This document shows, in pieces, positions 32,514 through 55,816 of a stretch of DNA of 64,000 bases (the first letter of the stretch is position 1; each line of letters opens with the position of its first letter). Source of the DNA: an uncultured bacterium (lineage in GTDB: Bacteria > Patescibacteriota > Microgenomatia > Levybacterales > UBA12049); NCBI GenBank assembly GCA_963826535.1, contig CAWGXL010000011.1:803521-867520 (forward strand). Direction: 5' to 3'. The translations under genes were made by a program, and so were the position numbers. Under the pieces are notes generated by a model. That model had not been told where the DNA came from. It did no database searches and saw only the letters and a program-made list of their open reading frames with translations.

Positions 32514-33671
32514 ATGCGAAGACTTATTATTTTAATTGTTATTCTTGTACTTATTTTAGGTGCAACGAGTGTGGTACAGAGGTATGTTCCTGCTTTGAAT
32601 AATTTAATCCGGGATAATTCAAAGATTGTTATACCTCAGAGAGAGGCTGTAAAAATAGTTTCCGAGGAATCGATAACCATTGGCATTGTCAAGAAAGCGG
32701 GTGAGTCGGTTGTGACTATTTCAGAAGAGCGCGAACCCAGTTCAAATTTAAATCCTTATTTTGATTTCGGTCCTTTTGGTTTTCAGATTCCCGGTCAAGA
32801 AGAACTGCAACCGCAACAACCACAGAGCATTGGTTCAGGATTTGTTATTTCAAAGGAAGGGATGATTGTGACAAATAAGCATGTTGTAAGTGACTTACAA
32901 GTGAAGTATTTTATTATCACAAGTAGTGATAAAAAATATACAGTGCAGAAAATTTACCGTGATCCATTAAATGATGTCGCGCTTATACAAATTGACCTTA
33001 ATGAAAACCCGGGAGCAATTCTTAAGCCCATTGATTTGGGCGACTCTACTGATTTACAGGTTGGTCAATATGTTGCGGCAATTGGTACAGCGCTTGGTGA
33101 ATTCCGTAATACAGTTACAACCGGGATAATTTCAGGTTTGGGGCGGGGGATTACAGCAGGTAGTTTTTATGAAGGATCTGTTGAGCGGCTTGATAATGTT
33201 ATACAAACCGATGCGGCAATCAATCCAGGTAATAGCGGAGGACCACTTTTGAATTCTACAGGTCAGGTGATTGGAGTGAATACAGCGGTTTCGGCTAGCG
33301 GACAGAATATTGGTTTCGCGATTCCTATAAATGTTATTAAGGATTCGCTGAATAATTTCAATCAGACAGGACAATTTAACAGGCCGTATTTAGGTATTGC
33401 ATATAGATTTATTTCCAAAGATATTGCAATATTAAATGATCTGCCTGAGGGAGCGTATGTCCAGAATGTCGTGCAGAGTTCGGCAGCGGATAAAGCCGGT
33501 GTGGAAACAGGAGATATAATTACTAAGATTGATGGGCAACAGATTGATGTGAGTAATCAGCTGTCATCTATTATTGCGAAGAAAAAAGTAGGAGACAGGA
33601 TAGCAATTTCTCTTTTCCGCGATGGAGAAATACAAGATATTCAAGTAGTGCTTGAATCGGTCACGGAATAA
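32514..33671 (+). CDS. HtrA/DegP family serine protease (trypsin-like + PDZ)
   Basis: TNKHVV (His), D in NDVALI, GNSGGPL (Ser), C-terminal PDZ (GDIITKIDGQQI). Confidence 0.85.
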   Translation: MRRLIILIVILVLILGATSVVQRYVPALNNLIRDNSKIVIPQREAVKIVSEESITIGIVKKAGESVVTISEEREPSSNLNPYFDFGPFGFQIPGQEELQPQQPQSIGSGFVISKEGMIVTNKHVVSDLQVKYFIITSSDKKYTVQKIYRDPLNDVALIQIDLNENPGAILKPIDLGDSTDLQVGQYVAAIGTALGEFRNTVTTGIISGLGRGITAGSFYEGSVERLDNVIQTDAAINPGNSGGPLLNSTGQVIGVNTAVSASGQNIGFAIPINVIKDSLNNFNQTGQFNRPYLGIAYRFISKDIAILNDLPEGAYVQNVVQSSAADKAGVETGDIITKIDGQQIDVSNQLSSIIAKKKVGDRIAISLFRDGEIQDIQVVLESVTE

Positions 33672-41012: not shown

Positions 41013-42395
41013 TTATTGAGTTTGGGGTAGTTCGGCTTTGATAAGCTCTTCGGTTCCTTTCGTAGTAGTTTCAATTGCAGCAGCAGCAATTGCCCCCAAT
41101 AAAAATAGTAACACTTTGCCCAAAGTCAATTTATTTTTTTCTTCTGGCGTTAGATTGTCTCCTTTATTTTCAAGTTGATTTATTTCTTGTTTAAGATTGT
41201 TTTGTTCTGTTGAAATATTTTCAGGTTTAATATTTTTTAATGTATCTGCTGTTGAAATAATCGTATCTGGATTTTGGCTTAATTTTTTAATAATCTCCGC
41301 TCTTTTATCCGGAGATACTTTCATATCGGCCAATTGTGCTCCGATTTCACCCATAGCATTTAACTGTTTTTGTTCTTGGGATAATTCATTTTTCTCGGCA
41401 GATTCTGCAGGAGGTTGTGCTTCCGTTGCTTGCGTAGCAGGCTTATCTTCAATTTTCGTTGTAGGTTCAATTGCTTGAACTTGAGGTTGCTCGGGAGCCG
41501 GGTGTTCAACCTTGGCCGTGTCCGGTAGTGGTGATTCACCAGAGGGTGGGGGAGAACTTGATTCAGCAGTTACAGGTTGGGATCGTTCTCCGCCTGATGA
41601 TTGGTTTTTAGTTGCCAGGCGTGCTGCTTTTTTCATATCTAGTTCCGCGTTTTTGTCCTTGACCCATTTAGCCTTTCTGTCAGCTAGTTGTTGGGCTGAT
41701 TCCGTAACAGGCTTCTCAACTCTGGTAGTATCTGCATTTGGCGTTTCGGAAACGGGTGGAGGTTTGGGTTGTCCGGATTTCGCTTTTCCTAACTTGCCTT
41801 GGACCCAGGCTTTCAAGTTCTTTTTGTAATTTTCTGCCCGGGTACGCTCATCATTTTGTAAGGCTTGTTCAGTAACAGGAAGTTTAACATTAGCTTGTTC
41901 GGCATTCGGTGTTTCGGCAGTTTGTGGGGGAGAGGTTGCTTCTGCTGTTGGAGTAGTTTGTTCGGGAGCCGTCTGTGTTGTTTTAGTTTCTGTTTGTTGT
42001 TCCTGCGATGGTTTTGGAACAGAGGGTTCAACTTGGACCGTATCGAGTTTTGTTACTTCATCTGGTTGTCGGGACGATTTTGCTTCAGCTAAAGGCTTAA
42101 CACTTGCAGCCGCTTTTGTATCTAGGGTGTCTTGATTTTTGCTATTGTCGGTGGATGCATTTTGTTTGTATTCTATCTGCGGTTTATCTTTGCCTGTCTT
42201 AAAAAACATTTCCATTATACCCCTAGCATCTTTGCCTTGGCCTATTTTAATAGTGTCAAGTACTCCTTGTGCTTGTGCATCTTTTGGCTTAGGAGTTTCC
42301 GCTGGTTTTACAGACTGACTCATCTCTGCTCCTTTTTCCCGTATTGATGGAGTTGTTTCACTGCTTGTCGTATTCATTATTAGTACTTTTACCAA
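41013..42395 (-). CDS. Low-complexity Pro/Thr/Glu/Lys-rich protein with single C-terminal TM helix (tail-anchored)
   Basis: 460 aa, PEQTTPTAEATSPPQTAETP repeats; C-terminal LGKVLLFLLGAIAAAAI. Confidence 0.45.
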   Translation of the reverse strand: MVKVLIMNTTSSETTPSIREKGAEMSQSVKPAETPKPKDAQAQGVLDTIKIGQGKDARGIMEMFFKTGKDKPQIEYKQNASTDNSKNQDTLDTKAAASVKPLAEAKSSRQPDEVTKLDTVQVEPSVPKPSQEQQTETKTTQTAPEQTTPTAEATSPPQTAETPNAEQANVKLPVTEQALQNDERTRAENYKKNLKAWVQGKLGKAKSGQPKPPPVSETPNADTTRVEKPVTESAQQLADRKAKWVKDKNAELDMKKAARLATKNQSSGGERSQPVTAESSSPPPSGESPLPDTAKVEHPAPEQPQVQAIEPTTKIEDKPATQATEAQPPAESAEKNELSQEQKQLNAMGEIGAQLADMKVSPDKRAEIIKKLSQNPDTIISTADTLKNIKPENISTEQNNLKQEINQLENKGDNLTPEEKNKLTLGKVLLFLLGAIAAAAIETTTKGTEELIKAELPQTQ

Positions 42396-43470: not shown

Positions 43471-44745
43471 TTACTTGAGCGCTTCCAGGAGTTTTTCGAG
43501 GGTGTATTGTTTTTGCAGACGGGTTTTTAGGTTTTTTAGGGTTACTACATTTTTTTCTAATTCTTCAGGACCAATTATAATCACATTTGGAATTCCTTTT
43601 TGGTCTGCATATTTGAGTTGTTTTTCCAGAGGATTTTTTTCTTTTATTTCACCGAGATATATTTCAGTGTTGATATTGTCCGAACGAAGAATGGAGGCGA
43701 TTTGTAGAGATTGTTTCATGAGTTTTTCATTAAACACTGTTATCAGTACTTGAGCTACTTTTGCTTTTATATCAGGAATTTTATTGAATTGTTTGAGCAA
43801 TTCTTGTATAGGCATATCTCCCGGCGCCATTCCAACTCCGGGAATTCTTTCTCCCCCAATTGTTGCTGTTAAATTATCAAACCTGCCACCACCAAAAATT
43901 GCCCTTTTCAATCCTTGAGTTTTATCCCATGCTTCAAAGACAGTACGAGTATAGTAGTCAAAACCTCTAAATATTTTGGGATCAAATTCTATATATTGCT
44001 TAATATCAGAGTAATTTTCTAATGAATTAAATACTTTTTTCAGCCATTCGGATTTTGTGTAATCCTTGTTATCTATGAATTCAAATAGTGATTCTATTTG
44101 ATTTTCAGATAAGTCAGAGGTCTTTTTTATTTTTGCTAACAATTCAACTCTAGGAAGTTTATCAATTTTGTCGAGTAATCTAATTAATGTAGGACGATCC
44201 TTTATGGCAATATTTTGTTTATCACAAAAATCTTCAAAGAATGATCTGTCGCTTACTTTGATTACTACTTCATCAGGCGTAAGATTCAGTTCTTTAAAAA
44301 ATTCGGCTGCAATTGCCAGGATTTCTGCGTCGGCTTCCGGTGTTTCGGGACCTAAGATATTGATTTCCCATTGGAAGAATTCCCGGCCTCTCCCTTTTTG
44401 GGGCTGTTCATATCTCCAACCGCGGCCAAACATAAACCATCTAATTGGTTTTAATAGTTCCTGAGATTTTTGAGCGACCATACGAGCGACAGTGGGGGTG
44501 AGCTCGGGACGCAAGACAAGCAGATTGTTGTCTTTGTCTTTTAGTGTAAAGACTTGTTCTTTCAAAATTTCTTCATTTGTTTTATTTGCGTATAAGTCAA
44601 GATATTCAATTTCCGGTCCGTCATATTCTTGATAACCAAATTTTTCAGATACTTTTTTCATTTTTTGGTACAACCAATTGCGGAGCGCTAAATCATCCGG
44701 GTAAAAATCTCTGGTTCCTTTAACTGGCGATATTGTTTTATTCAT
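43471..44745 (-). CDS. hisS: Histidine--tRNA ligase
   Basis: Class II motifs: KGTRDFYP (motif 1 region), FRYEQPQKGRGREFFQ (motif 2), GGGRFD (motif 3); C-terminal anticodon-binding domain present, so HisS rather than HisZ. Confidence 0.8.
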   Translation of the reverse strand: MNKTISPVKGTRDFYPDDLALRNWLYQKMKKVSEKFGYQEYDGPEIEYLDLYANKTNEEILKEQVFTLKDKDNNLLVLRPELTPTVARMVAQKSQELLKPIRWFMFGRGWRYEQPQKGRGREFFQWEINILGPETPEADAEILAIAAEFFKELNLTPDEVVIKVSDRSFFEDFCDKQNIAIKDRPTLIRLLDKIDKLPRVELLAKIKKTSDLSENQIESLFEFIDNKDYTKSEWLKKVFNSLENYSDIKQYIEFDPKIFRGFDYYTRTVFEAWDKTQGLKRAIFGGGRFDNLTATIGGERIPGVGMAPGDMPIQELLKQFNKIPDIKAKVAQVLITVFNEKLMKQSLQIASILRSDNINTEIYLGEIKEKNPLEKQLKYADQKGIPNVIIIGPEELEKNVVTLKNLKTRLQKQYTLEKLLEALK

Positions 44746-44827: not shown

Positions 44828-45538
44828 CTACATCAGTCTCCTTTTTTGTTGGGCGATAGTTATTTTATCTCTTATATCATCAAGAATCTGCTTGTCTCTT
44901 TGGCTCATTTTTTCTTCAGATTCAATCAGCCGTGTAGCGACTTGGTGAAATCTTTCAAGTTCTATAATATTGTTTGCCGCAATTGTCCGGCCTGAATCAA
45001 CCACATCAATTATTCCGACACAATCGTTAAATACATACTGTATTGCTTCTGTTTTTCCGGGAGATTCAAATATCGTAATTTCTTTTACACCTCTTTCATT
45101 TAAAGTTTCTTTGGAGATATTGGGAAATTTTGTGACAACCATTTTATTTTTTAAATCAATTACTCCAATTGATCCGTTTCTTATTCTTGTTTCTTGTTCA
45201 AATCGTTTAGTTACGCCTATAAAAAGAGCAGGTCTAGTTATGTCTGGGAAGAGTTCGTATATCGGAAGTGCTTCGCCTGCATTGGCGTTGAGTCCGGCTT
45301 CCCATAAGATGTCACTTCCGGTTATCCCTGCTTTTAAATTTGAGCGGGTGTCTTTTAGAATGCGCGGTATATCGCTTGCCCGCATAACGATAAGATCAAG
45401 CGGCATATTTTTTACCGGAACAAGATACTGCTTGCCGCAGTCCGTAAAATCCAGACCAACTGCTTTTAACAGTTTGTTAACATTTGTTTGTAGTTCTCCG
45501 CCGGGAAGAGCTATTCTTGTACGTTCGATATCTTTCAT
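44828..45538 (-). CDS. hisG: ATP phosphoribosyltransferase (HisG-like)
   Basis: TRIALPGGEL (cf. RIAIPSKGRL), DIPRILKD...GITGSDIL, C-terminal DVVDSGRTIAANNI (cf. DLVSTGATLRANGL). Confidence 0.65.
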   Translation of the reverse strand: MKDIERTRIALPGGELQTNVNKLLKAVGLDFTDCGKQYLVPVKNMPLDLIVMRASDIPRILKDTRSNLKAGITGSDILWEAGLNANAGEALPIYELFPDITRPALFIGVTKRFEQETRIRNGSIGVIDLKNKMVVTKFPNISKETLNERGVKEITIFESPGKTEAIQYVFNDCVGIIDVVDSGRTIAANNIIELERFHQVATRLIESEEKMSQRDKQILDDIRDKITIAQQKRRLM

Positions 45539-45639
45539 AAAAAAACATTTTTTTCAACAAAAAAACCTCACGTTCGTTATTTACCATTTGGCCTATATGA
45601 ATAGGTAATGGTGAAATAAGGAACGAGAGGTATTCGACG

Positions 45640-45900
45640 AGCTCATACTCATGAGCAATATCCTCCATACCTTAGCATTCGCCTTTTAGTACTATTCGTA
45701 CACGGCTCATGCTGCGGTATTCGGAGGATGATGAGATCGTTGTCCCATCAAAAAAGGACCTCTCGCGGTCCCATCCTTGATTCCTAAAGGCATTTTTCCT
45801 TTAGGCTCTTCGGCCGACTCCGCGTTACGACATCGACTGTTGTAGTTTACGGTTCAACTTCCGTAAGGCATTTTTGCCTTCAGCTTCCGGATCGTGACTC
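45640..45900 (-). promoter_or_regulatory. Candidate T-box riboswitch leader (tRNA-His-sensing) upstream of hisG-hisS
   Basis: On the minus strand: strong stem cctaaagg-aaaaatg-cctttagg (Stem III-like), then aaucaAGGAUGGGACCGCGag matching the T-box consensus AGGGUGGNACCGCG (12/13). Bulge UGGG implies discriminator C73 (tRNA-His). Then ggacc-gcgaga-ggtcc + UUUUUU terminator. Confidence 0.45.
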
Positions 45901-46074
45901 CGGTCAGACGCTTTATAAATCTTTAATTGTTCTGTTATTTTAGCATAAAAGAATATTTTGTCAAATTTTGTAGGCTATTTTATCAGCTTTCGTAGAGGTT
46001 GTGAAGTGCTTTTGTTACTGGATACGTTTATTTGCTATTTGTTTAAAACCGATAGAAAATCAGCAATTTTAGTT

Positions 46075-46911
46075 TTATTTAGCTTGTATATATTCTTTTT
46101 GGGCAACTTGATTAAGTATTAGTCTAAAATCGCTAAATACTTCAAGTCCATTCTCCTTCCCAAATGATCCACTAGGGCCTCTAGCAACACCTAGTACTTT
46201 TCCTTCATTATCTACCAAAGGCCCACCGCTATTGCCTGGTAAAACTCTTCCATTATAGTAAAGATGTAGGTCTTTTGTCTCAGTTACCCCTTGCCTTTTC
46301 ATCAAAGCTTGCATATAAGGAGTGTGGTTGGGAGGCTCTTTAGTAGAAACTTTGCCTATACTTATTAAAGGTCTTTGAGAGTCAGCCCAAGCTTCTTTAA
46401 ATTCACCGGGAAACCTAATGGCTGCAGCATTTTGAGTTGTATCATGGCGCACATTCTGTTCGGATATCTCAACTCCTTCATTATCGCCTTCAAATGGAAA
46501 TATAGCTGCATCAGTTGCATGCATGCCATTAGATTTAGCGGTGATGCTATCATAAAGCAAATCAGGATTTTTCATCACCCCTTCTATCATTTCTCCTTTA
46601 TTATCTCTGTAGTGATACTTCAGTGATTTTTCAGGATGAGCTAACATTTCGTCTATTACATGTGTTGCTGTTACTAAATATTTATTCCCCTCATAGGAAA
46701 TGATTACTCCACTGCCACCAGGTTCTGAAGGGTTTTCACTTACAAGTACGGTTGCATTAACAGCTTGTTGTAATTCTGGAATAACACCTTGTTCAGATTT
46801 AAAATAATGAGTCCTATCTTGAAATGTAGGATTTTGGAATGTTGCTGTGTCTAATGAATCCCTAACTTCAGTAGCTGGTCTATACCCAGTTTCTATAAAA
46901 CCTGCATCCAT
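46075..46911 (-). CDS. Trypsin-like (S1 family) serine peptidase, no signal peptide
   Basis: His in YLVTATHVI, Asp in ATDAAIFPF, Ser in GNSGGPLVDNEGKVLGVA. Confidence 0.7.
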   Translation of the reverse strand: MDAGFIETGYRPATEVRDSLDTATFQNPTFQDRTHYFKSEQGVIPELQQAVNATVLVSENPSEPGGSGVIISYEGNKYLVTATHVIDEMLAHPEKSLKYHYRDNKGEMIEGVMKNPDLLYDSITAKSNGMHATDAAIFPFEGDNEGVEISEQNVRHDTTQNAAAIRFPGEFKEAWADSQRPLISIGKVSTKEPPNHTPYMQALMKRQGVTETKDLHLYYNGRVLPGNSGGPLVDNEGKVLGVARGPSGSFGKENGLEVFSDFRLILNQVAQKEYIQAK

Positions 46912-47076
46912 ATTTATTATTAGTATATCAAAAATGTGGCAAAGAAGAATGCTATTGTTTAGCTTTAATTTCGGATTGAGGGAGTTATTAGATTTCTATA
47001 AGTTGTTTTGGGGATTTTTTGTTAGCTATTGAGATGCATGGGTAAATAAGGAAGATTTTATTATTTTGATATGTAT

Positions 47077-47883
47077 TTATTCTTTTTGGGCAACTTGTTT
47101 AAGTATCTGTCTAAAATCGCTAAATATATTATTCTCACCAAATCCACTAGGGCCTTCAGCAACACCTAGTACTTTTCCTTCATTATCTACCAAAGGCCCA
47201 CCACTATTGCCTCGTGTAATTTTTCCATTATAGTAAAAATATAGATCTTCTATCTCATTTACCGTTTGTATTTCCAAAGCATGCATGTAAGTATTGTATA
47301 TAAGAGGCTTGTTAGGAAAGGCATTTCCTATACTAATTAAGGGTCTTTGAGATTCAACCCAAGCATGTTTAAATGCACCAGGAAATCCTATGGCTGCAGT
47401 ATTTTGGGTTACATTATGTAGCAAACTCTTTTCAGATATTTCAACTCCTTCATTGCCGCCTTCAAATGGAAATATAGCTGCATCAGTAGATCGCAGACCT
47501 TTAGATATAGCTGTAATGCTATCATAAAGCAAATCAGGATTTTTCATCACCCCTTCTTTTATCTCTCCTTTACTATCTCTGTAGTGATATTTAAGTGACG
47601 TTTCAGGATGAGCTAACATTTCACCAATCACATGTGTTGCTGTTACTAAATATTTATTCCCCTCATAGGAAATGATTACTCCACTGCCACCAGGTTCTGA
47701 AGGGTTTTCACTTACAAGTACGGTTGCATTAACAGCTTGTTGTAATTCTGGAATAACACCTTGTTCAGATTTAAAATAGATAATTCTATCTAAAGGTGTA
47801 GGATTTTGGAATGTTGCTGTGTCTAATGATCTCCTTACCTCAGAAGTTTGTCTATATAGAGCTTCTACAGCATTTGAAACCAT
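47077..47883 (-). CDS. Trypsin-like (S1 family) serine peptidase, tandem paralogue
   Basis: Same triad motifs. About 150 bp (47640-47790) are 100% identical to 46661-46810 of the neighbour, with identical upstream catatttattattagt; C-terminal halves diverge. Confidence 0.7.
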   Translation of the reverse strand: MVSNAVEALYRQTSEVRRSLDTATFQNPTPLDRIIYFKSEQGVIPELQQAVNATVLVSENPSEPGGSGVIISYEGNKYLVTATHVIGEMLAHPETSLKYHYRDSKGEIKEGVMKNPDLLYDSITAISKGLRSTDAAIFPFEGGNEGVEISEKSLLHNVTQNTAAIGFPGAFKHAWVESQRPLISIGNAFPNKPLIYNTYMHALEIQTVNEIEDLYFYYNGKITRGNSGGPLVDNEGKVLGVAEGPSGFGENNIFSDFRQILKQVAQKE

Positions 47884-47990
47884 ATTTATTATTAGTGTAG
47901 CAAAAAAGTTTTGTAAATCAAGCTCATTTATTAAGATTGGCATTAACTAAGGAGAGGGTGGTTTGTATGAAATTTTGAGTGAGGGGAATA

Positions 47991-49109
47991 TTAAATTTCT
48001 ATAAGGTTTTTGGGGGATTTGGTTAGTTGGATAAGTTTATTGTTTTGGATTGTAAAGAGGTCTTCGGTGCGGACGCCGAATTTATCAGGCAGGTAAATTC
48101 CCGGCTCTATTGAGAAGACCATTCCATTTTGGAGTTTATCTTTTGATTTTGGTGAGAGTCTGGGGGCTTCGTGGACTTCAAGGCCAATCCCGTGTCCGAG
48201 TCCGTGGGGGTAGGCAGGATAACCCTTGGAAACTATATAAAATCTTGCAGCATTATCTAAATCTAGTGTTTTTATTACTCTAGATTGTTTTATTGTTTCA
48301 TTGTTATATTGTTCAATTGCTTTTTGTTGGGAGGCGAGGACGGTTTCATAGATACGTTTTTTTTCAGGTGAAACTTTTCCGAAATGTATTGTCCGCGTCA
48401 TGTCGGAGCAGTAATTTTCGTATTTTACGCCAAAGTCTAGAAGTATAAATTCGTTGTTTTTTAATTTGCGGGTTCCTGTTTTGTGGTGGGGAATGGCGGC
48501 GTTTTCTTCGAATGCAAGGATTGTCGCGAATGAAATGTCGGAACCTTGTTTTCTTATGAAATGTTCGAGCTCAAAAGCAATATCTTTTTCTGCCATTCCG
48601 ACTTTTATAAAGGACAGGATATGAGTGAAAGCCTTATCGCCAATCTGACATGCTTTTTTAATTTTTTTTATTTCTTTTTGAACTTTGATTATTCTGAGTG
48701 ACGATAGGTCGATGTGATTAATTTTTTTAATTAATTTTTTATTATTATTTAGGCGAGATAAAATTTTTTCATGCTCGTATACAGTGAGGTTATGTGCGTC
48801 AATTCCGAGGGACTTAATATTTTCTTGCTTTAAAATTTTTTCTAATTCTAATATTTTTTCATGACTTGTTGTTTCAGAACCTACTAAAAGTTTGAAGTCT
48901 TTAACATGTTTTTTTACAGCGTGCACGTACCTTCCATCGGTAATTATATAATTGTTATTTTTTGTAATAAGCAGAAAAGCTTCTCTTTCCATGTTTGAGA
49001 AATAAGAGAAATCTGTTAGATAGATAATATCTGGGACAGAGGAGATGAGGGCCGCGTCTAAAGACTTAGTAGAAAGTAATTTTTTAAATTTTGATAGACG
49101 AGTGTTCAT
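47991..49109 (-). CDS. M24 family Xaa-Pro aminopeptidase / prolidase
   Basis: HGLGHGIGLEVHEAPRL and other metal ligands (D...D...H...E...E pattern) of the creatinase/prolidase fold. Confidence 0.8.
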   Translation of the reverse strand: MNTRLSKFKKLLSTKSLDAALISSVPDIIYLTDFSYFSNMEREAFLLITKNNNYIITDGRYVHAVKKHVKDFKLLVGSETTSHEKILELEKILKQENIKSLGIDAHNLTVYEHEKILSRLNNNKKLIKKINHIDLSSLRIIKVQKEIKKIKKACQIGDKAFTHILSFIKVGMAEKDIAFELEHFIRKQGSDISFATILAFEENAAIPHHKTGTRKLKNNEFILLDFGVKYENYCSDMTRTIHFGKVSPEKKRIYETVLASQQKAIEQYNNETIKQSRVIKTLDLDNAARFYIVSKGYPAYPHGLGHGIGLEVHEAPRLSPKSKDKLQNGMVFSIEPGIYLPDKFGVRTEDLFTIQNNKLIQLTKSPKNLIEI

Positions 49110-53752: not shown

Positions 53753-55816
53753 TTGGAAGATAATGATTTTATGAATTTTAAGAAAACAATTCCAAATATT
53801 TATAAAAGTTGGGGTATGTACTTAGTAGTATTAATGTGTCTATTCTTCCTGGCGATTACTTTCTTTACTGTTAACTCACTGCAAAAAGAAAAAACTAATT
53901 ATATAAGTAAGGCTCAATCATCCTTGGTACTTACAGCCTTTCCGGGTGCTGAAGGATTTGGTGCTAAGGCAACGGGCGGACGCGGGGGGGCTGTCATCAA
54001 AGTTACTAATTTGAATACATCCGGAATGGGTAGTTTACAGTGGGCAGTCGATCAACCTGGAGCGCGTGTAATAGTTTTTGGGGTTTCGGGGGTTATTCCC
54101 GGTGATGTTCGTATTTCCCACGGCGATATCACTATTGCCGGCCAAACAGCACCCGGCGCGGGTATTACGATCAACGGGCATCTGTCTACCCAGTATGGAA
54201 CCACGTTTGGCAATATAATCGTTCGTCATATTCGCGTACGACCACCGGGATTATCAGCCAGTTGGCCTGCCGGTCAGCATGACTCTATTCAGTTTTCTAC
54301 GAACAATACTATGATCTTGGATCACGTTGACATGTCCTATGGCGTTGATGAGACGGTGGATATGTGGGGAGGAGCGCGGGATATTACTGTACAGTGGTCA
54401 GCGATCACTTTTCCCGATACAGCGAGTTCGCATAATGTCGGATTCATCAATGGACCGGGAGGAGGCCGAGTTTCTATCCACCACAATCTTTTTGCGCATA
54501 GCAGATCCCGCAATCCGGCGCTTTCAGATGGGCCTTCCGATACGGTCAATAATGTCGTATACAACTTCCGTGAAGGGTTCGTGCACCACAACCCTGTAGC
54601 CGGAGACTTCAACATTATCGGGAACTATTTTAAATCTGGAAGTAATGCAGCAACCTCACCATTATGGTTTGACCCGGAAAATACACCAACCTCGCGGTAT
54701 TTCGTCTCTGATAACTACGTCGATCATCCCGGGAAATTTGTGGGTATTGTCAATAATCCATACACAACAGCCGGCTTTAGCACGTACTCCTTTGCGTGCT
54801 GCGGCATAACCTCTGCTCACTTCAATTATTCTACCGCTTTCGATTACAGTAGTTTTACGGGGTATGCACCCCTTACCGTGAATTCGCCCCAGACGGCCTA
54901 TACTACTGTATTGGATAAAGCAGGTACGTGGCCGCGTGATATTGTAAATCGGTGGGCAGTGGATGATGTTAAGAACCGCACGGGAGTGTGGGGGGCGCGT
55001 CGGCCTGCAAATTTCATGGATGGGTTAAATCCCGGTGTATATCCTGCCGATGTGGACAATGATGGTATAGCGGATAGTTGGGAAGCATCTCACGGCCTCA
55101 GTTCTTCTAATCCTAATGATTATAATTCTCTCCGGCCTTCCGGGTATACGGCGATCGAAGAATACATTAATGAACTGGCTGATTCTTTGACCGGTGCTAC
55201 TACCACACCCCCTCCATCACCAAGCGAACCCACTCCTACCAGCATTACAACCCCTACTTCGACACCATTACCGACATTTACCCCTATCCCTACACCAACA
55301 CCGACTCCCATTTTTACACCAACACCTACTCCTACATCTGTGCCTACTCCAACTCCAACAAAGACTCCGACACCAACTCCCGTCCCCACAGGCAATGGAC
55401 TGACAGGCTTATACTTTCCCAATAGAACCCTAAGCGGTGCACCTACTCTTGCCAGGATTGATCCTGCAGTCAATTTCATTTGGGCAACCGGTGCGCCCTC
55501 TCCCGCTCTTCCCTCCAATAACTTCTCTGTACGCTGGACAGGATATGTAATGCCACAATACTCCCAGCAATATACCTTCTATACTCAAAGCGATGATGGA
55601 GTAAGAGTGTGGGTAAACGGAATAAGGATAATCAATAATTGGACTGATCATGGGTCAACAGAAAATAGCGGAAAAATAAACCTCACAGCCGGAGTAAAAT
55701 ACACAATCAAACTAGAGTACTATGAAAAACAGGGCAATGCTCTTATCCAATTACGCTGGAGCAGTCCCTCCCAAGCAAAAGTTATTATTCTTCAGAGCAG
55801 GTTATATAGTAATTGA
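53753..55816 (+). CDS. Secreted right-handed beta-helix (pectate-lyase-like) protein with Pro/Thr linker and C-terminal PA14 domain
   Basis: N-terminal TM/signal; GAEGFGAKATGGRGG...WAVDQPGARVIVFGVSG pectate-lyase-type start; PTPTPTP linker (55200-55390); PA14 signature GLYFPN...FSVRWTGYV...YTFYTQSDDGVRVWVNG...KYTIKLEYYE. Confidence 0.7.
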   Translation: MEDNDFMNFKKTIPNIYKSWGMYLVVLMCLFFLAITFFTVNSLQKEKTNYISKAQSSLVLTAFPGAEGFGAKATGGRGGAVIKVTNLNTSGMGSLQWAVDQPGARVIVFGVSGVIPGDVRISHGDITIAGQTAPGAGITINGHLSTQYGTTFGNIIVRHIRVRPPGLSASWPAGQHDSIQFSTNNTMILDHVDMSYGVDETVDMWGGARDITVQWSAITFPDTASSHNVGFINGPGGGRVSIHHNLFAHSRSRNPALSDGPSDTVNNVVYNFREGFVHHNPVAGDFNIIGNYFKSGSNAATSPLWFDPENTPTSRYFVSDNYVDHPGKFVGIVNNPYTTAGFSTYSFACCGITSAHFNYSTAFDYSSFTGYAPLTVNSPQTAYTTVLDKAGTWPRDIVNRWAVDDVKNRTGVWGARRPANFMDGLNPGVYPADVDNDGIADSWEASHGLSSSNPNDYNSLRPSGYTAIEEYINELADSLTGATTTPPPSPSEPTPTSITTPTSTPLPTFTPIPTPTPTPIFTPTPTPTSVPTPTPTKTPTPTPVPTGNGLTGLYFPNRTLSGAPTLARIDPAVNFIWATGAPSPALPSNNFSVRWTGYVMPQYSQQYTFYTQSDDGVRVWVNGIRIINNWTDHGSTENSGKINLTAGVKYTIKLEYYEKQGNALIQLRWSSPSQAKVIILQSRLYSN

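What the first reader, a model, noticed from the sequence alone, without database searches (positions are those of the whole stretch)
46075..47943. Tandem cytoplasmic trypsin-like protease paralogues with a 150-bp tract of 100% identity (gene conversion) and divergent C-terminal halves
Two adjacent S1-family peptidase genes, both without signal peptides, share an identical upstream motif and an N-terminal region that is nucleotide-identical over about 150 bp (46661-46810 vs 47640-47790). The substrate-facing C-terminal halves have diverged. This implies ongoing recombination homogenising one part while the specificity region diversifies. Both sit next to an M24 aminopeptidase.
Basis: seen in the sequence. 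Interest (0 to 1): 0.5.

Follow-up and report, generated by a model that had tools for sequence, protein, structure and literature searches.

The report
Duplicated protease genes with conversion tract
Two neighbouring copies of a small, uncharacterised cytoplasmic serine-protease gene in a tiny-genome (CPR) bacterium arose by a local ~1-kb duplication and later swapped a 149-base stretch by gene conversion.

Summary
Genes A (46075-46911, -) and B (47077-47883, -) are 85% identical in DNA and share a perfect 149-nt run (46658-46806 = 47630-47778; permutation P<1e-5). Outside it dS is about 0.31. Inside it there are no synonymous differences (P~4e-5). Orthologues show no extra synonymous conservation there, and the tract has no unusual RNA fold. 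Interlocus gene conversion is therefore the best explanation. The spacer between the genes holds a decayed copy of the M24 gene's last codons, which proves an in-situ head-to-tail duplication of about 990 bp. Both proteins are PF13365 trypsin-like proteases. Both have an invariant His84/Asp134/Ser228 triad and a DegS/Deg5-like fold. Neither has a PDZ domain, signal peptide or membrane segment. They belong to a very small family seen mainly in Microgenomates-type CPR genomes. The "diversifying C-terminal half" reading is not supported. Divergence is mosaic: the N-terminal 35 residues and two loops have omega~1, and the core has omega 0.38. Copy B is simply the faster, AT-drifting copy. M24 adjacency is not conserved in orthologues. 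This is a new member of known kinds and of low interest. In passing: a sub-threshold, reduced-Stem-I, apparently His-specific T-box-like leader lies just downstream, in front of hisG-hisS.

The parts
46075..46911 (-). Gene A: 278-aa PDZ-less, signal-less trypsin-like (PF13365) serine protease. Catalytic His84, Asp134, Ser228.
   Evidence: ORF. Pfam E=3.6e-12. Triad invariant in 41 family members. AF2 model pLDDT 85.8, pTM 0.85. DegS/Deg5-like fold.
47077..47883 (-). Gene B: 268-aa paralogue, 75% aa identity to A. The ORF runs on to an in-frame ATG at 47943, but the homologous start is 47883. It is the faster-evolving copy, with a 4-residue deletion in a family-conserved loop.
   Evidence: P0002, 268 aa; model pLDDT 84.3, same secondary structure.
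46658..46806 (.). Copy in gene A of the 149-nt perfectly identical tract. It covers codons 36-85, which form part of the N-terminal extension and the first strands of barrel 1, up to the catalytic His84.
   Evidence: longest run, P<1e-5. (no synonymous differences inside the run).
47630..47778 (.). Copy in gene B of the same 149-nt tract.
46183..46227 (.). Second-longest perfect run, 45 nt, equal to 47158-47202 in B. It covers GGPLVDNEGKVLGVA just after Ser228. It may be an older or shorter conversion tract, or it may reflect constraint.
   Evidence: P=0.005 after removing the first tract. dS for codons 219-278 is only 0.09.
46956..47071 (-). Relic of the 3' end of the M24 gene and of the M24-protease spacer, lying between B and A. 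It reads ...KKSPKQLIEI** against ...TKSPKNLIEI* in the real gene. It marks the head-to-tail duplication junction, possibly at a TACA microhomology near 47071.
   Evidence: repeat family D5: 46956-47017 vs 47959-48020, 74%..
46912..46930 (-). Duplicated core promoter and very short leader of A: extended -10-like TGATATACT, then AATAATAAAT, then ATG. The B copy lies at 47884-47902 (TGCTACACT...). There is no Shine-Dalgarno sequence.
   Evidence: Orthologues carry an extended -10-like element (TGnTAnAnT or a near variant lacking the TG) 6 nt before the ATG. Function is inferred.
47991..49109 (-). Neighbouring M24 Xaa-Pro-type peptidase gene. Its last ~20 codons formed the upstream end of the duplicated unit. 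It is not a conserved partner of the protease.
   Evidence: Orthologue contexts.

Best explanation
A segment of about 990 bp was duplicated head-to-tail in this Microgenomates-type CPR lineage. It held the last ~20 codons of the M24 peptidase gene, the spacer with the core promoter, and the whole gene for a free-standing HtrA-like (PF13365) serine protease.

The duplication came after the split from all sampled relatives. The copies then diverged to dS of about 0.3. Later, homologous recombination between the two direct repeats (non-reciprocal interlocus gene conversion, presumably RecA-dependent and seeded in flanking 30-40-nt identical runs) overwrote at least 149 bp of one copy with the other. 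This reset codons 36-85 to identity. Shorter identical runs, such as the 45 nt after Ser228, may be older events.

Both products keep the His-Asp-Ser triad and the predicted chymotrypsin/HtrA fold. Both lack any export signal. They are therefore most likely active cytoplasmic endopeptidases, each transcribed from its own copy of an extended -10 promoter with almost no leader.

Copy B (upstream) is under weaker constraint. It has more derived residues, drifts towards A+T, and has lost conserved residues of the loop after the last-but-one strand (L2 / 220-loop position). It is either shifting in specificity or slowly decaying.

Status of each step:
- Shown: the duplication anatomy, the tract statistics, family membership, and absence of hydrophobic segments.
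- Inferred: the recombination mechanism, expression, activity and cellular location.
For: Tract and gene conversion:
- The 149-nt perfect run has P<1e-5.
- dS is 0.31 outside the tract and there are no synonymous differences inside, P~4e-5.
- About 14 aa differences were expected in the tract from family variability and none is seen, P~4e-8.
- Orthologues show no extra third-position conservation in the tract: ~0.45 inside vs ~0.52 outside.
- The tract RNA fold gives z=+1.05.

Duplication:
- An M24 C-terminal relic lies between the genes.
- Repeat families are spaced 972-1003 nt apart.
- A and B are each other's closest relatives even outside the tract: 69% vs <=56%.
- Only these two family members lie on the 894-kb source contig.

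Protein family and fold:
- PF13365 scores are above cutoff.
- The triad is invariant.
- The AF2 models have pLDDT 85.8 and 84.3.
- Maximum hydropathy is 0.63.

Selection and asymmetry:
- Core omega is 0.38 and variable-part omega is 0.97.
- At differing columns A matches the outgroup majority 25 times and B 12 times (p=0.047).
- GC-to-AT changes from A to B number 57 against 36 in the other direction (counts).
Against: - No reads or independent assembly are available, so exact identity of the tract cannot be verified. A 32-mer from the tract found nothing in the metagenome collection.
- No close relative genome carries the locus, so the classic test (the tract tree groups paralogues while the flanks group orthologues) cannot be run. 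The nearest hisG is 58% identical. Only three of these distant hisG contigs were inspected, and none carries M24 or the protease beside hisG.
- Promoter assignments are consensus matches only. The scan found no more sites than in shuffled sequence.
- Protease activity, cytoplasmic location and any difference in specificity are untested.
Confidence: 0.78

Rival explanations
1. Adaptive diversification. Gene conversion protects a shared catalytic or oligomerisation core, while positive selection drives the substrate-facing loops of the two copies apart to give two specificities.
For: - Differences concentrate in the insert before Ser228 (residues 190-215, 65% different) and in the loop at 244-256 (46% different, plus a 4-residue deletion in B). 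By topology these sit at the HtrA L3 and L2 / chymotrypsin 220-loop positions.
- Both copies keep intact ORFs, the triad and the fold.
Against: - Omega in the variable parts is 0.97, not above 1. The binomial test against neutrality gives p=1.0.
- The first 35 residues also diverge strongly (43% different), and they are not the specificity region.
- B departs from family-conserved residues (K252, E253, G255, E257, T197, P198). This looks more like loss of constraint.
- B drifts towards A+T.
- Two sequences give little power to detect site-specific positive selection.
Confidence: 0.2
2. Assembly or polishing artefact. The two copies really differ in the tract, but bubble-popping, repeat collapse or short-read polishing of mis-mapped reads made them identical. 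The tract length is close to a 150-nt read.
For: - The tract length of 149 nt is close to a common read length.
- The sequence comes from a single metagenome-derived contig with no second assembly.
Against: - At the background divergence about 20-26 differences would be expected in 149 nt (119 differences in 804 nt; outside the tract about 18%). Assemblers do not merge such divergent paths, so an artefact could erase a few differences at most (inference).
- Both full units, each with its own diverged flanks and the M24 relic, are laid out consistently in tandem.
- Other shorter perfect runs give the mosaic pattern typical of conversion.
Confidence: 0.07
3. Nucleotide-level purifying selection. 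The tract holds an embedded functional element (a structured RNA, a binding site or an antisense gene) that forbids even synonymous change in both copies.
For: A 149-nt stretch with no change at about 35 synonymous sites.
Against: - Orthologues show ordinary or even lower third-position identity in the same codons: ~0.45 vs ~0.52 outside.
- No RNA structure signal (z=+1.05).
- No Rfam match.
- No antisense ORF of 50 aa or more covers more than a small part of the tract; one 83-aa and one 61-aa ORF each overlap only its ends.
Confidence: 0.03
4. The proteases are effectors of a defence or toxin-type module, and duplication with loop divergence reflects an arms race.
For: - PADLOC gives domain-level hits to the retron type XI RT-protease (E~1e-9 to 4e-10) and to a Lamassu LmuA protease model (E~1e-6 to 4e-8).
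- Several orthologues lie beside AbiEii, Fic, GIY-YIG, resolvase or ParE/Phd genes.
Against: - The PADLOC hits cover only the generic protease domain and are no better than the Pfam Trypsin_2 hit.
- No RT, LmuB/C or any conserved partner is present. The neighbours differ in every genome and are housekeeping genes in the window and in L011/L013.
- Viral fold hits are generic chymotrypsin folds.
Confidence: 0.08

Closest known systems
HtrA/DegP/DegS family (MEROPS S1C) protease domain; PDZ-less Deg5 of chloroplasts
   Same: - Chymotrypsin double-barrel fold.
- His...Asp...Ser order with TATHV and GNSGGPL motifs.
- Best sequence matches in the PDB are HtrA proteins.
   Different: - No PDZ domain, no signal peptide and no membrane anchor.
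- About 20% identity, and sequence similarity limited to the His and Ser motifs.
- All NCBIfam HtrA/DegS models score far below their cutoffs (about 35 bits vs 416).
- A 60-residue N-terminal extension and a helix-containing insert before the Ser loop.
- A canonical HtrA with a PDZ domain is encoded separately at 32514-33671.
Interlocus gene conversion / concerted evolution of duplicated bacterial genes (e.g. tufA/tufB, from general knowledge; surveys in PMC6053082; M. tuberculosis repeats in PMC12046097; mosaic divergence in tandem paralogues modelled in bioRxiv 10.1101/2025.10.29.685298)
   Same: A stretch of identity, synonymous sites included, embedded in otherwise diverged paralogues. The overall pattern is a mosaic.
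   Different: A single short tract in a recent, lineage-specific pair. There is no evidence of long-lasting concerted evolution, and the gene family is not a core pathway component.
Staphylococcus aureus spl operon (tandem SplA-F trypsin-like proteases) and V8/glutamyl endopeptidases
   Same: A tandem array of paralogous chymotrypsin-fold serine proteases. SplC, SplE and V8 are among the top structural matches.
   Different: The Spl and V8 proteases are secreted with signal peptides and activated by N-terminal processing (general knowledge). A and B have no signal peptide and share only 16-20% identity with them.
Protease domains of the retron type XI RT-protease and of Lamassu LmuA (PADLOC models PDLC02959/60 and PDLC03855)
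   Same: Cytoplasmic trypsin-like domain. PADLOC E-values run from 1e-6 to 4e-10.
   Different: Only the protease domain matches. There is no reverse transcriptase, ncRNA or LmuB/C partner and no conserved neighbour.
Multi-domain Trypsin_2 + TPR proteins
   Same: They are the next-best hits of the family profile beyond the family itself (E~1e-12 to 1e-10).
   Different: They are 500-1400 aa long with two or three Trypsin_2 domains and long TPR arrays. Only the generic domain is shared.

Membership tests
Pfam PF13365 Trypsin_2 (clan PA serine peptidases) | Whole-protein score above the Pfam gathering threshold (27.6 bits) | tested here: met
   A scores 47.7 bits and B 42.9 bits.
Clan PA(S) / family S1 serine peptidase | Catalytic triad in the order His, Asp, Ser, with a GxSGG oxyanion/nucleophile motif, on a two-barrel chymotrypsin fold | tested here: met
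   - H84, D134 and S228 are invariant in 41 sequences, and the motif reads GNSGG.
- Enzymatic activity was not tested.
HtrA (S1C) family in the strict sense | At least one C-terminal PDZ domain | tested here: not met
   No PDZ hit in A or B. The proteins end about 50 residues after Ser228. The canonical HtrA at 32514-33671 does have PDZ_2.
HtrA (S1C) family in the strict sense | Signal peptide or N-terminal membrane anchor (periplasmic or extracytoplasmic location) | tested here: not met
   Maximum 19-residue hydropathy is 0.63 and the N-terminus is hydrophilic. No dedicated predictor was available.
HtrA (S1C) family in the strict sense | Score above the curated NCBIfam cutoffs for the DegP/DegQ/DegS/HtrA models | tested here: not met
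   The best score is 35 bits against cutoffs of 250-800.
Interlocus gene conversion | An identical tract significantly longer than expected from the overall divergence | tested here: met
   149 nt. The permutation maximum was 114 nt in 1e5 trials.
Interlocus gene conversion | Synonymous sites homogenised as well, which excludes protein-level selection | tested here: met
   No synonymous differences in about 35 synonymous sites, against pS 0.25 outside (P~4e-5).
Interlocus gene conversion | No independent nucleotide-level constraint on the segment | tested here: met
   Third-position identity among orthologues in the tract is not raised. The fold z-score is +1.05. There is no Rfam hit.
Interlocus gene conversion | Phylogenetic incongruence between tract and flanks, using a relative that carries both copies | not testable with these tools
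   No close relative was found. The nearest protease homologues are <=59% identical and the six orthologue groups whose contigs were inspected are single-copy. The hisG anchor search found nothing closer than 58%.
Tandem segmental duplication | Flanking non-gene sequence duplicated with the gene, and a recognisable junction | tested here: met
   The relic of the M24 3' end and the spacer are repeated between the copies. The junction lies just after the stop codon of B.
Retron type XI (RT-protease) | Reverse transcriptase domain fused or adjacent, plus msr/msd ncRNA | tested here: not met
   Only profile positions ~327-490 (the protease part) match. A and B have no RT domain. The neighbours are M24, a 2-hydroxyacid dehydrogenase, hisG and hisS.
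Lamassu (LmuA-protease type) | LmuB (SMC-like ATPase), with or without LmuC, encoded alongside | tested here: not met
   No such neighbour in the window or in the orthologue loci.
Diversity-generating retroelement TR/VR pair (considered because of the tract size) | Differences restricted to adenine positions of one repeat, a nearby RT, and a repeat confined to the 3' end of the target gene | tested here: not met
   The genes are homologous over their whole length. The substitution spectrum is ordinary (68 transitions, 51 transversions; A at 36 of 119 differing sites).

The most novel reading that the evidence does not exclude
A and B co-assemble into hetero-oligomeric, cytoplasmic, PDZ-less HtrA-like proteases. 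These would be specific to Microgenomates-type CPR bacteria. Recurrent gene conversion would keep the N-terminal barrel and extension identical in both subunits, because in HtrA proteins that region forms the oligomer interface. The L2/L3-type loops would be free to differ, giving one particle two substrate or activation specificities. The module could serve cytoplasmic quality control or act as a defence or toxin-type protease.
Probability: 0.08. Interest if true: 0.5.

Novelty: new member of a known kind. Interest (0 to 1): 0.2.

Why it matters
The case is a clean, well-delimited example of duplication followed by interlocus gene conversion in a streamlined CPR genome of about 0.9 Mb, a group in which paralogues are scarce. 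It also flags a very small, uncharacterised family of free-standing, apparently cytoplasmic HtrA-like proteases. Only about 35 clusters at 50% identity were found among 1.84 billion representatives. The mechanism is textbook, and nothing here points to a new principle. Two practical points follow. The 149-bp direct repeat makes the locus prone to collapse into a hybrid gene and hard to assemble from short reads. The family is a cheap target for biochemical characterisation. The adjacent T-box-like leader may be the more interesting object in this neighbourhood.

Tried and rejected
- **Genome-collection scan with the family alignment.** It was swamped by the generic GNSGGP pattern and returned only distant HtrA relatives. 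It gave no information on tandem pairs elsewhere.
- **Metagenome scans.** One used hisG as a synteny anchor and one used a 32-mer from the tract. Both found nothing, so there is no close relative and no independent assembly.
- **Exact look-up of protein A's contig and cluster members.** These gave no record name or accession.
- **AFDB fold library.** It was unavailable.
- **Embedded RNA or other nucleotide-level element in the tract.** Rejected.
- **DGR-like template/variable repeat.** Rejected.
- **Defence-system membership.** Rejected as unsupported. The PADLOC hits are domain-level only and there is no conserved partner. The PHROG and viral fold hits are generic.
- **Functional link to M24.** Rejected (orthologue contexts).
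- **Comparative analysis of the structured spacer.** It failed. The hisG genes of relatives have no long leader, and the spacer has no match in the window, in the fetched loci or in phage records.
- **Literature search for CPR HtrA-like proteases.** It returned nothing.
Full report
**Observation**

- The window holds two adjacent minus-strand ORFs, A (46075-46911, 278 aa) and B (47077-47943 as the longest ORF).
- The start of B that is homologous to A and to every family member is the ATG at 47883 (268 aa). This is also the gene model in the protein database (P0002).
- A codon-guided alignment gives 804 aligned nt with 119 differences (85.2% identity).
- The longest perfect run is 149 nt, at 46658-46806 in A and 47630-47778 in B.
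- In 100,000 permutations of the differences, the longest run averaged 33 nt and never exceeded 114 nt.
The second interval is about 10 nt off.
- After removing this tract, the next run is 45 nt (46183-46227 = 47158-47202) and is still unusual (P=0.005).
- Further runs of 42, 33 and 31 nt give a mosaic pattern.

**Why the tract is gene conversion rather than selection**

- Nei-Gojobori counts give dS 0.31, dN 0.18 and omega 0.59 outside the tract.
- Inside the perfect run there is no difference at about 35 synonymous sites, P about 4e-5 at the outside rate.
- From the variability of the same columns in the rest of the family, about 14 amino-acid differences were expected in these 50 codons. 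None is seen.
- Six orthologue genes from other genomes show no excess third-position identity in these codons: about 0.45 against about 0.52 elsewhere.
- The tract as RNA folds no better than shuffles (z=+1.05).
- Rfam finds nothing there.
- The substitution spectrum between the copies is ordinary and not adenine-specific, so a DGR-type repeat is excluded.
- The remaining alternative is an assembly or polishing artefact, which cannot be tested without reads.
- At background divergence about 20-26 differences would be expected in 149 nt. Such an artefact could remove a few differences but not create the tract (inference).

**Anatomy of the duplication**

- Repeat families with spacings of 972-1003 nt cover the genes and both flanks.
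- The 165-nt spacer between B and A contains a decayed copy of the end of the M24 gene and of the M24-protease spacer. One frame reads KKSPKQLIEI**, against TKSPKNLIEI* at the true M24 C-terminus.
- The duplicated unit was therefore about 990 bp. It ran from about 20 codons before the M24 stop to just past the protease stop. The junction lies immediately after the stop codon of B, possibly at a TACA microhomology (tentative, because the sequence is AT-rich).
- B's stop codon TAA corresponds to TAT in A.
- The relic is 74-82% identical to its source. This matches the synonymous divergence of the genes and supports an old duplication with a recent conversion event.
- A and B are each other's nearest relatives even outside the tract: 69% aa identity against at most 56% to any other sequence.
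- They are the only family members on the 894-kb source contig. The duplication is thus lineage-specific.

**What the proteins are**

- Both pass the Pfam Trypsin_2 (PF13365) threshold.
- His84, Asp134 and Ser228 (motifs TATHV and GNSGGPL) are invariant in 41 family members.
- AlphaFold models are confident: A has pLDDT 85.8 and pTM 0.85, and B has pLDDT 84.3 and pTM 0.85, with the same secondary structure.
- They have no PDZ domain and fall far below all curated HtrA/DegS model cutoffs.
- They have no hydrophobic segment at all, with maximum 19-residue hydropathy 0.63.
- A canonical HtrA with a PDZ domain is encoded elsewhere in the window, at 32514-33671.
- The family has three distinguishing features: a well-predicted extension of about 60 residues at the N-terminus, an insert with a helix before the Ser loop (residues 190-215), and a conserved GPxGTxGKExGxExF loop after it.
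- The family is very small. A word-indexed search gave 43 hits. An exhaustive profile search gave 23 clusters at E<=1e-30 and about 35 full-length clusters among 1.84 billion representatives.
- Named members come from Candidatus Blackburnbacteria and Daviesbacteria.
- Beyond the family, the profile finds only generic Trypsin_2 domains in large TPR proteins.

**Selection on the two copies**

| Segment (residues) | Amino-acid differences |
|---|---|
| 1-35 | 43% |
| 36-85 (the tract) | 0% |
| 190-215 | 65% |
| 244-256 | 46%, plus a 4-residue deletion in B |
| rest of the core | about 21-27% |

- The variable parts together have omega 0.97, which is not different from neutral. The core outside the tract has omega 0.38 (p=0.004 against neutrality).
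- At columns where the copies differ, A keeps the outgroup majority residue 25 times and B 12 times (p=0.047).
- B departs from residues conserved in at least 85% of the family at P12, T197, P198, K252, E253, G255 and E257. A departs at G87, L130, G166 and K192.
- B has also drifted towards A+T (57 against 36 GC-content-changing differences, counted).
- Purifying selection therefore acts on the core of both copies. The loops evolve at a neutral-like rate. B is the less constrained copy.
- There is no positive evidence for diversifying selection, although two sequences give little power to detect it.

**Genomic context**

- In six other orthologue groups the gene is single-copy and its neighbours differ every time:
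  - DUF5680 and AbiEii
  - Fic and GIY-YIG
  - resolvase and ParE/Phd
  - murB and an aminotransferase
  - glycosyltransferases
  - hypothetical proteins
- None is next to M24. The M24 adjacency here is incidental, apart from having lent its 3' end to the duplicated unit.
- PADLOC hits (retron XI RT-protease, LmuA) cover only the protease domain and have no partners.
- Each orthologue carries an extended -10-like element (TGnTAnAnT or a near variant lacking the TG) 6 nt before its ATG and no Shine-Dalgarno sequence. A and B each retain a copy (TGATATACT and TGCTACACT) 10 nt before the ATG.
- The 'identical upstream motif' is thus the duplicated core promoter and short leader. Independent, nearly leaderless transcription is inferred, not shown.

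**Verdict**

- The gene-conversion reading is well supported.
- The adaptive-diversification reading and the M24 link are not supported.
- Interlocus conversion between duplicated bacterial genes is well documented (for example PMC6053082 and PMC12046097; mosaic divergence in tandem paralogues is modelled in bioRxiv 10.1101/2025.10.29.685298).
- The proteins are new members of the trypsin-like clan and resemble HtrA protease domains. They fail the defining HtrA features of a PDZ domain and export.
- Interest is low.

**Seen in passing**

- The 536-nt spacer downstream of A (45539-46074, minus strand) lies in front of hisG-hisS.
- It has a strong sigma-70-type promoter match at 45964-45937.
- The RNA that follows is highly structured (z=-9.3).
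- A targeted Rfam scan finds an end-to-end but sub-threshold T-box match at 45751-45917 (27.8 bits against a gathering score of 93; E=2e-4).
- In that match Stem I is reduced to a 5-bp stem with the 7-nt loop GUCACGA, which carries CAC, a His codon.
- The bulge reads UGGG+ACC. This fits the UGGN+ACC rule described in PMC7583486. The G would pair with a C73 discriminator (tRNA-His; from memory).
- No homologous leader was found in relatives.

Noticed in passing
window 45751-45917 (-), within the spacer 45539-46074: Sub-threshold but end-to-end T-box leader match (RF00230, 27.8 bits against a gathering score of 93, E=2e-4 in a targeted scan) upstream of hisG-hisS. Stem I is cut down to a 5-bp stem with the 7-nt loop GUCACGA (CAC is a His codon). 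The T-box bulge reads UGGG+ACC, and the G would pair with a C73 discriminator as in tRNA-His. The terminator GGGACC-GCGAGA-GGUCC-U6 lies at 45772-45755. A promoter match TTGACA-16-TAAAAT lies at 45964-45937. It looks like a minimal His-specific T-box in a CPR genome.
   Followed up: partly
window 45559-45750 (-): A second structured segment of about 200 nt lies between the T-box-like terminator and the hisG ATG. It ends in a long near-perfect hairpin plus U7 (45637-45559; picked up spuriously as mir-1). The whole 397-nt leader folds with z=-9.3. Its function is unknown. No homologue was found in the window, in the fetched loci, in phage records or upstream of hisG in relatives.
   Followed up: partly
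window 32514-33671 (+): Canonical HtrA-type protease (Trypsin_2 plus PDZ_2, 385 aa) encoded 13 kb away. The genome therefore has a standard HtrA in addition to the PDZ-less pair.
   Followed up: partly
window 44828-45538 (-) and 43471-44745 (-); locus L059 5001-7055: hisG (ATP phosphoribosyltransferase) sits directly upstream of a full-length HisRS with an anticodon-binding domain. The same hisG-hisS pairing recurs in a distant relative (L059). This is curious for a reduced CPR genome. Whether other his genes exist was not checked.
   Followed up: no
loci L001, L005, L008, L013, L015 (60 nt upstream of each orthologue); window 46912-46930 and 47884-47902: Family members carry an extended -10-like element (TGnTAnAnT, or a near variant lacking the TG in L008 and L013) ending 6 nt before the ATG, with no Shine-Dalgarno sequence. 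This suggests leaderless mRNAs. In the window copies the spacing is 10 nt.
   Followed up: partly
window 53753-55816 (+): A 687-aa protein with a C-terminal PA14/GLEYA domain coincides with a local GC rise (0.45-0.49 against about 0.38) and a reversed GC skew. This may be foreign DNA or a compositionally distinct surface protein. A PA14/GLEYA gene also lies near the protease orthologue in L005.
   Followed up: no
window 47884-47943 (-): An in-frame ATG 60 nt upstream extends the ORF of B by 20 codons (MPILINELDLQNFFATLIIN). This part has no counterpart in A or in any homologue and overlaps the promoter-like region. It is almost certainly not translated.
   Followed up: yes
window 41013-42395 (-): A 460-aa ORF with a TTG start and no Pfam match at E<=1e-3.
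   Followed up: no
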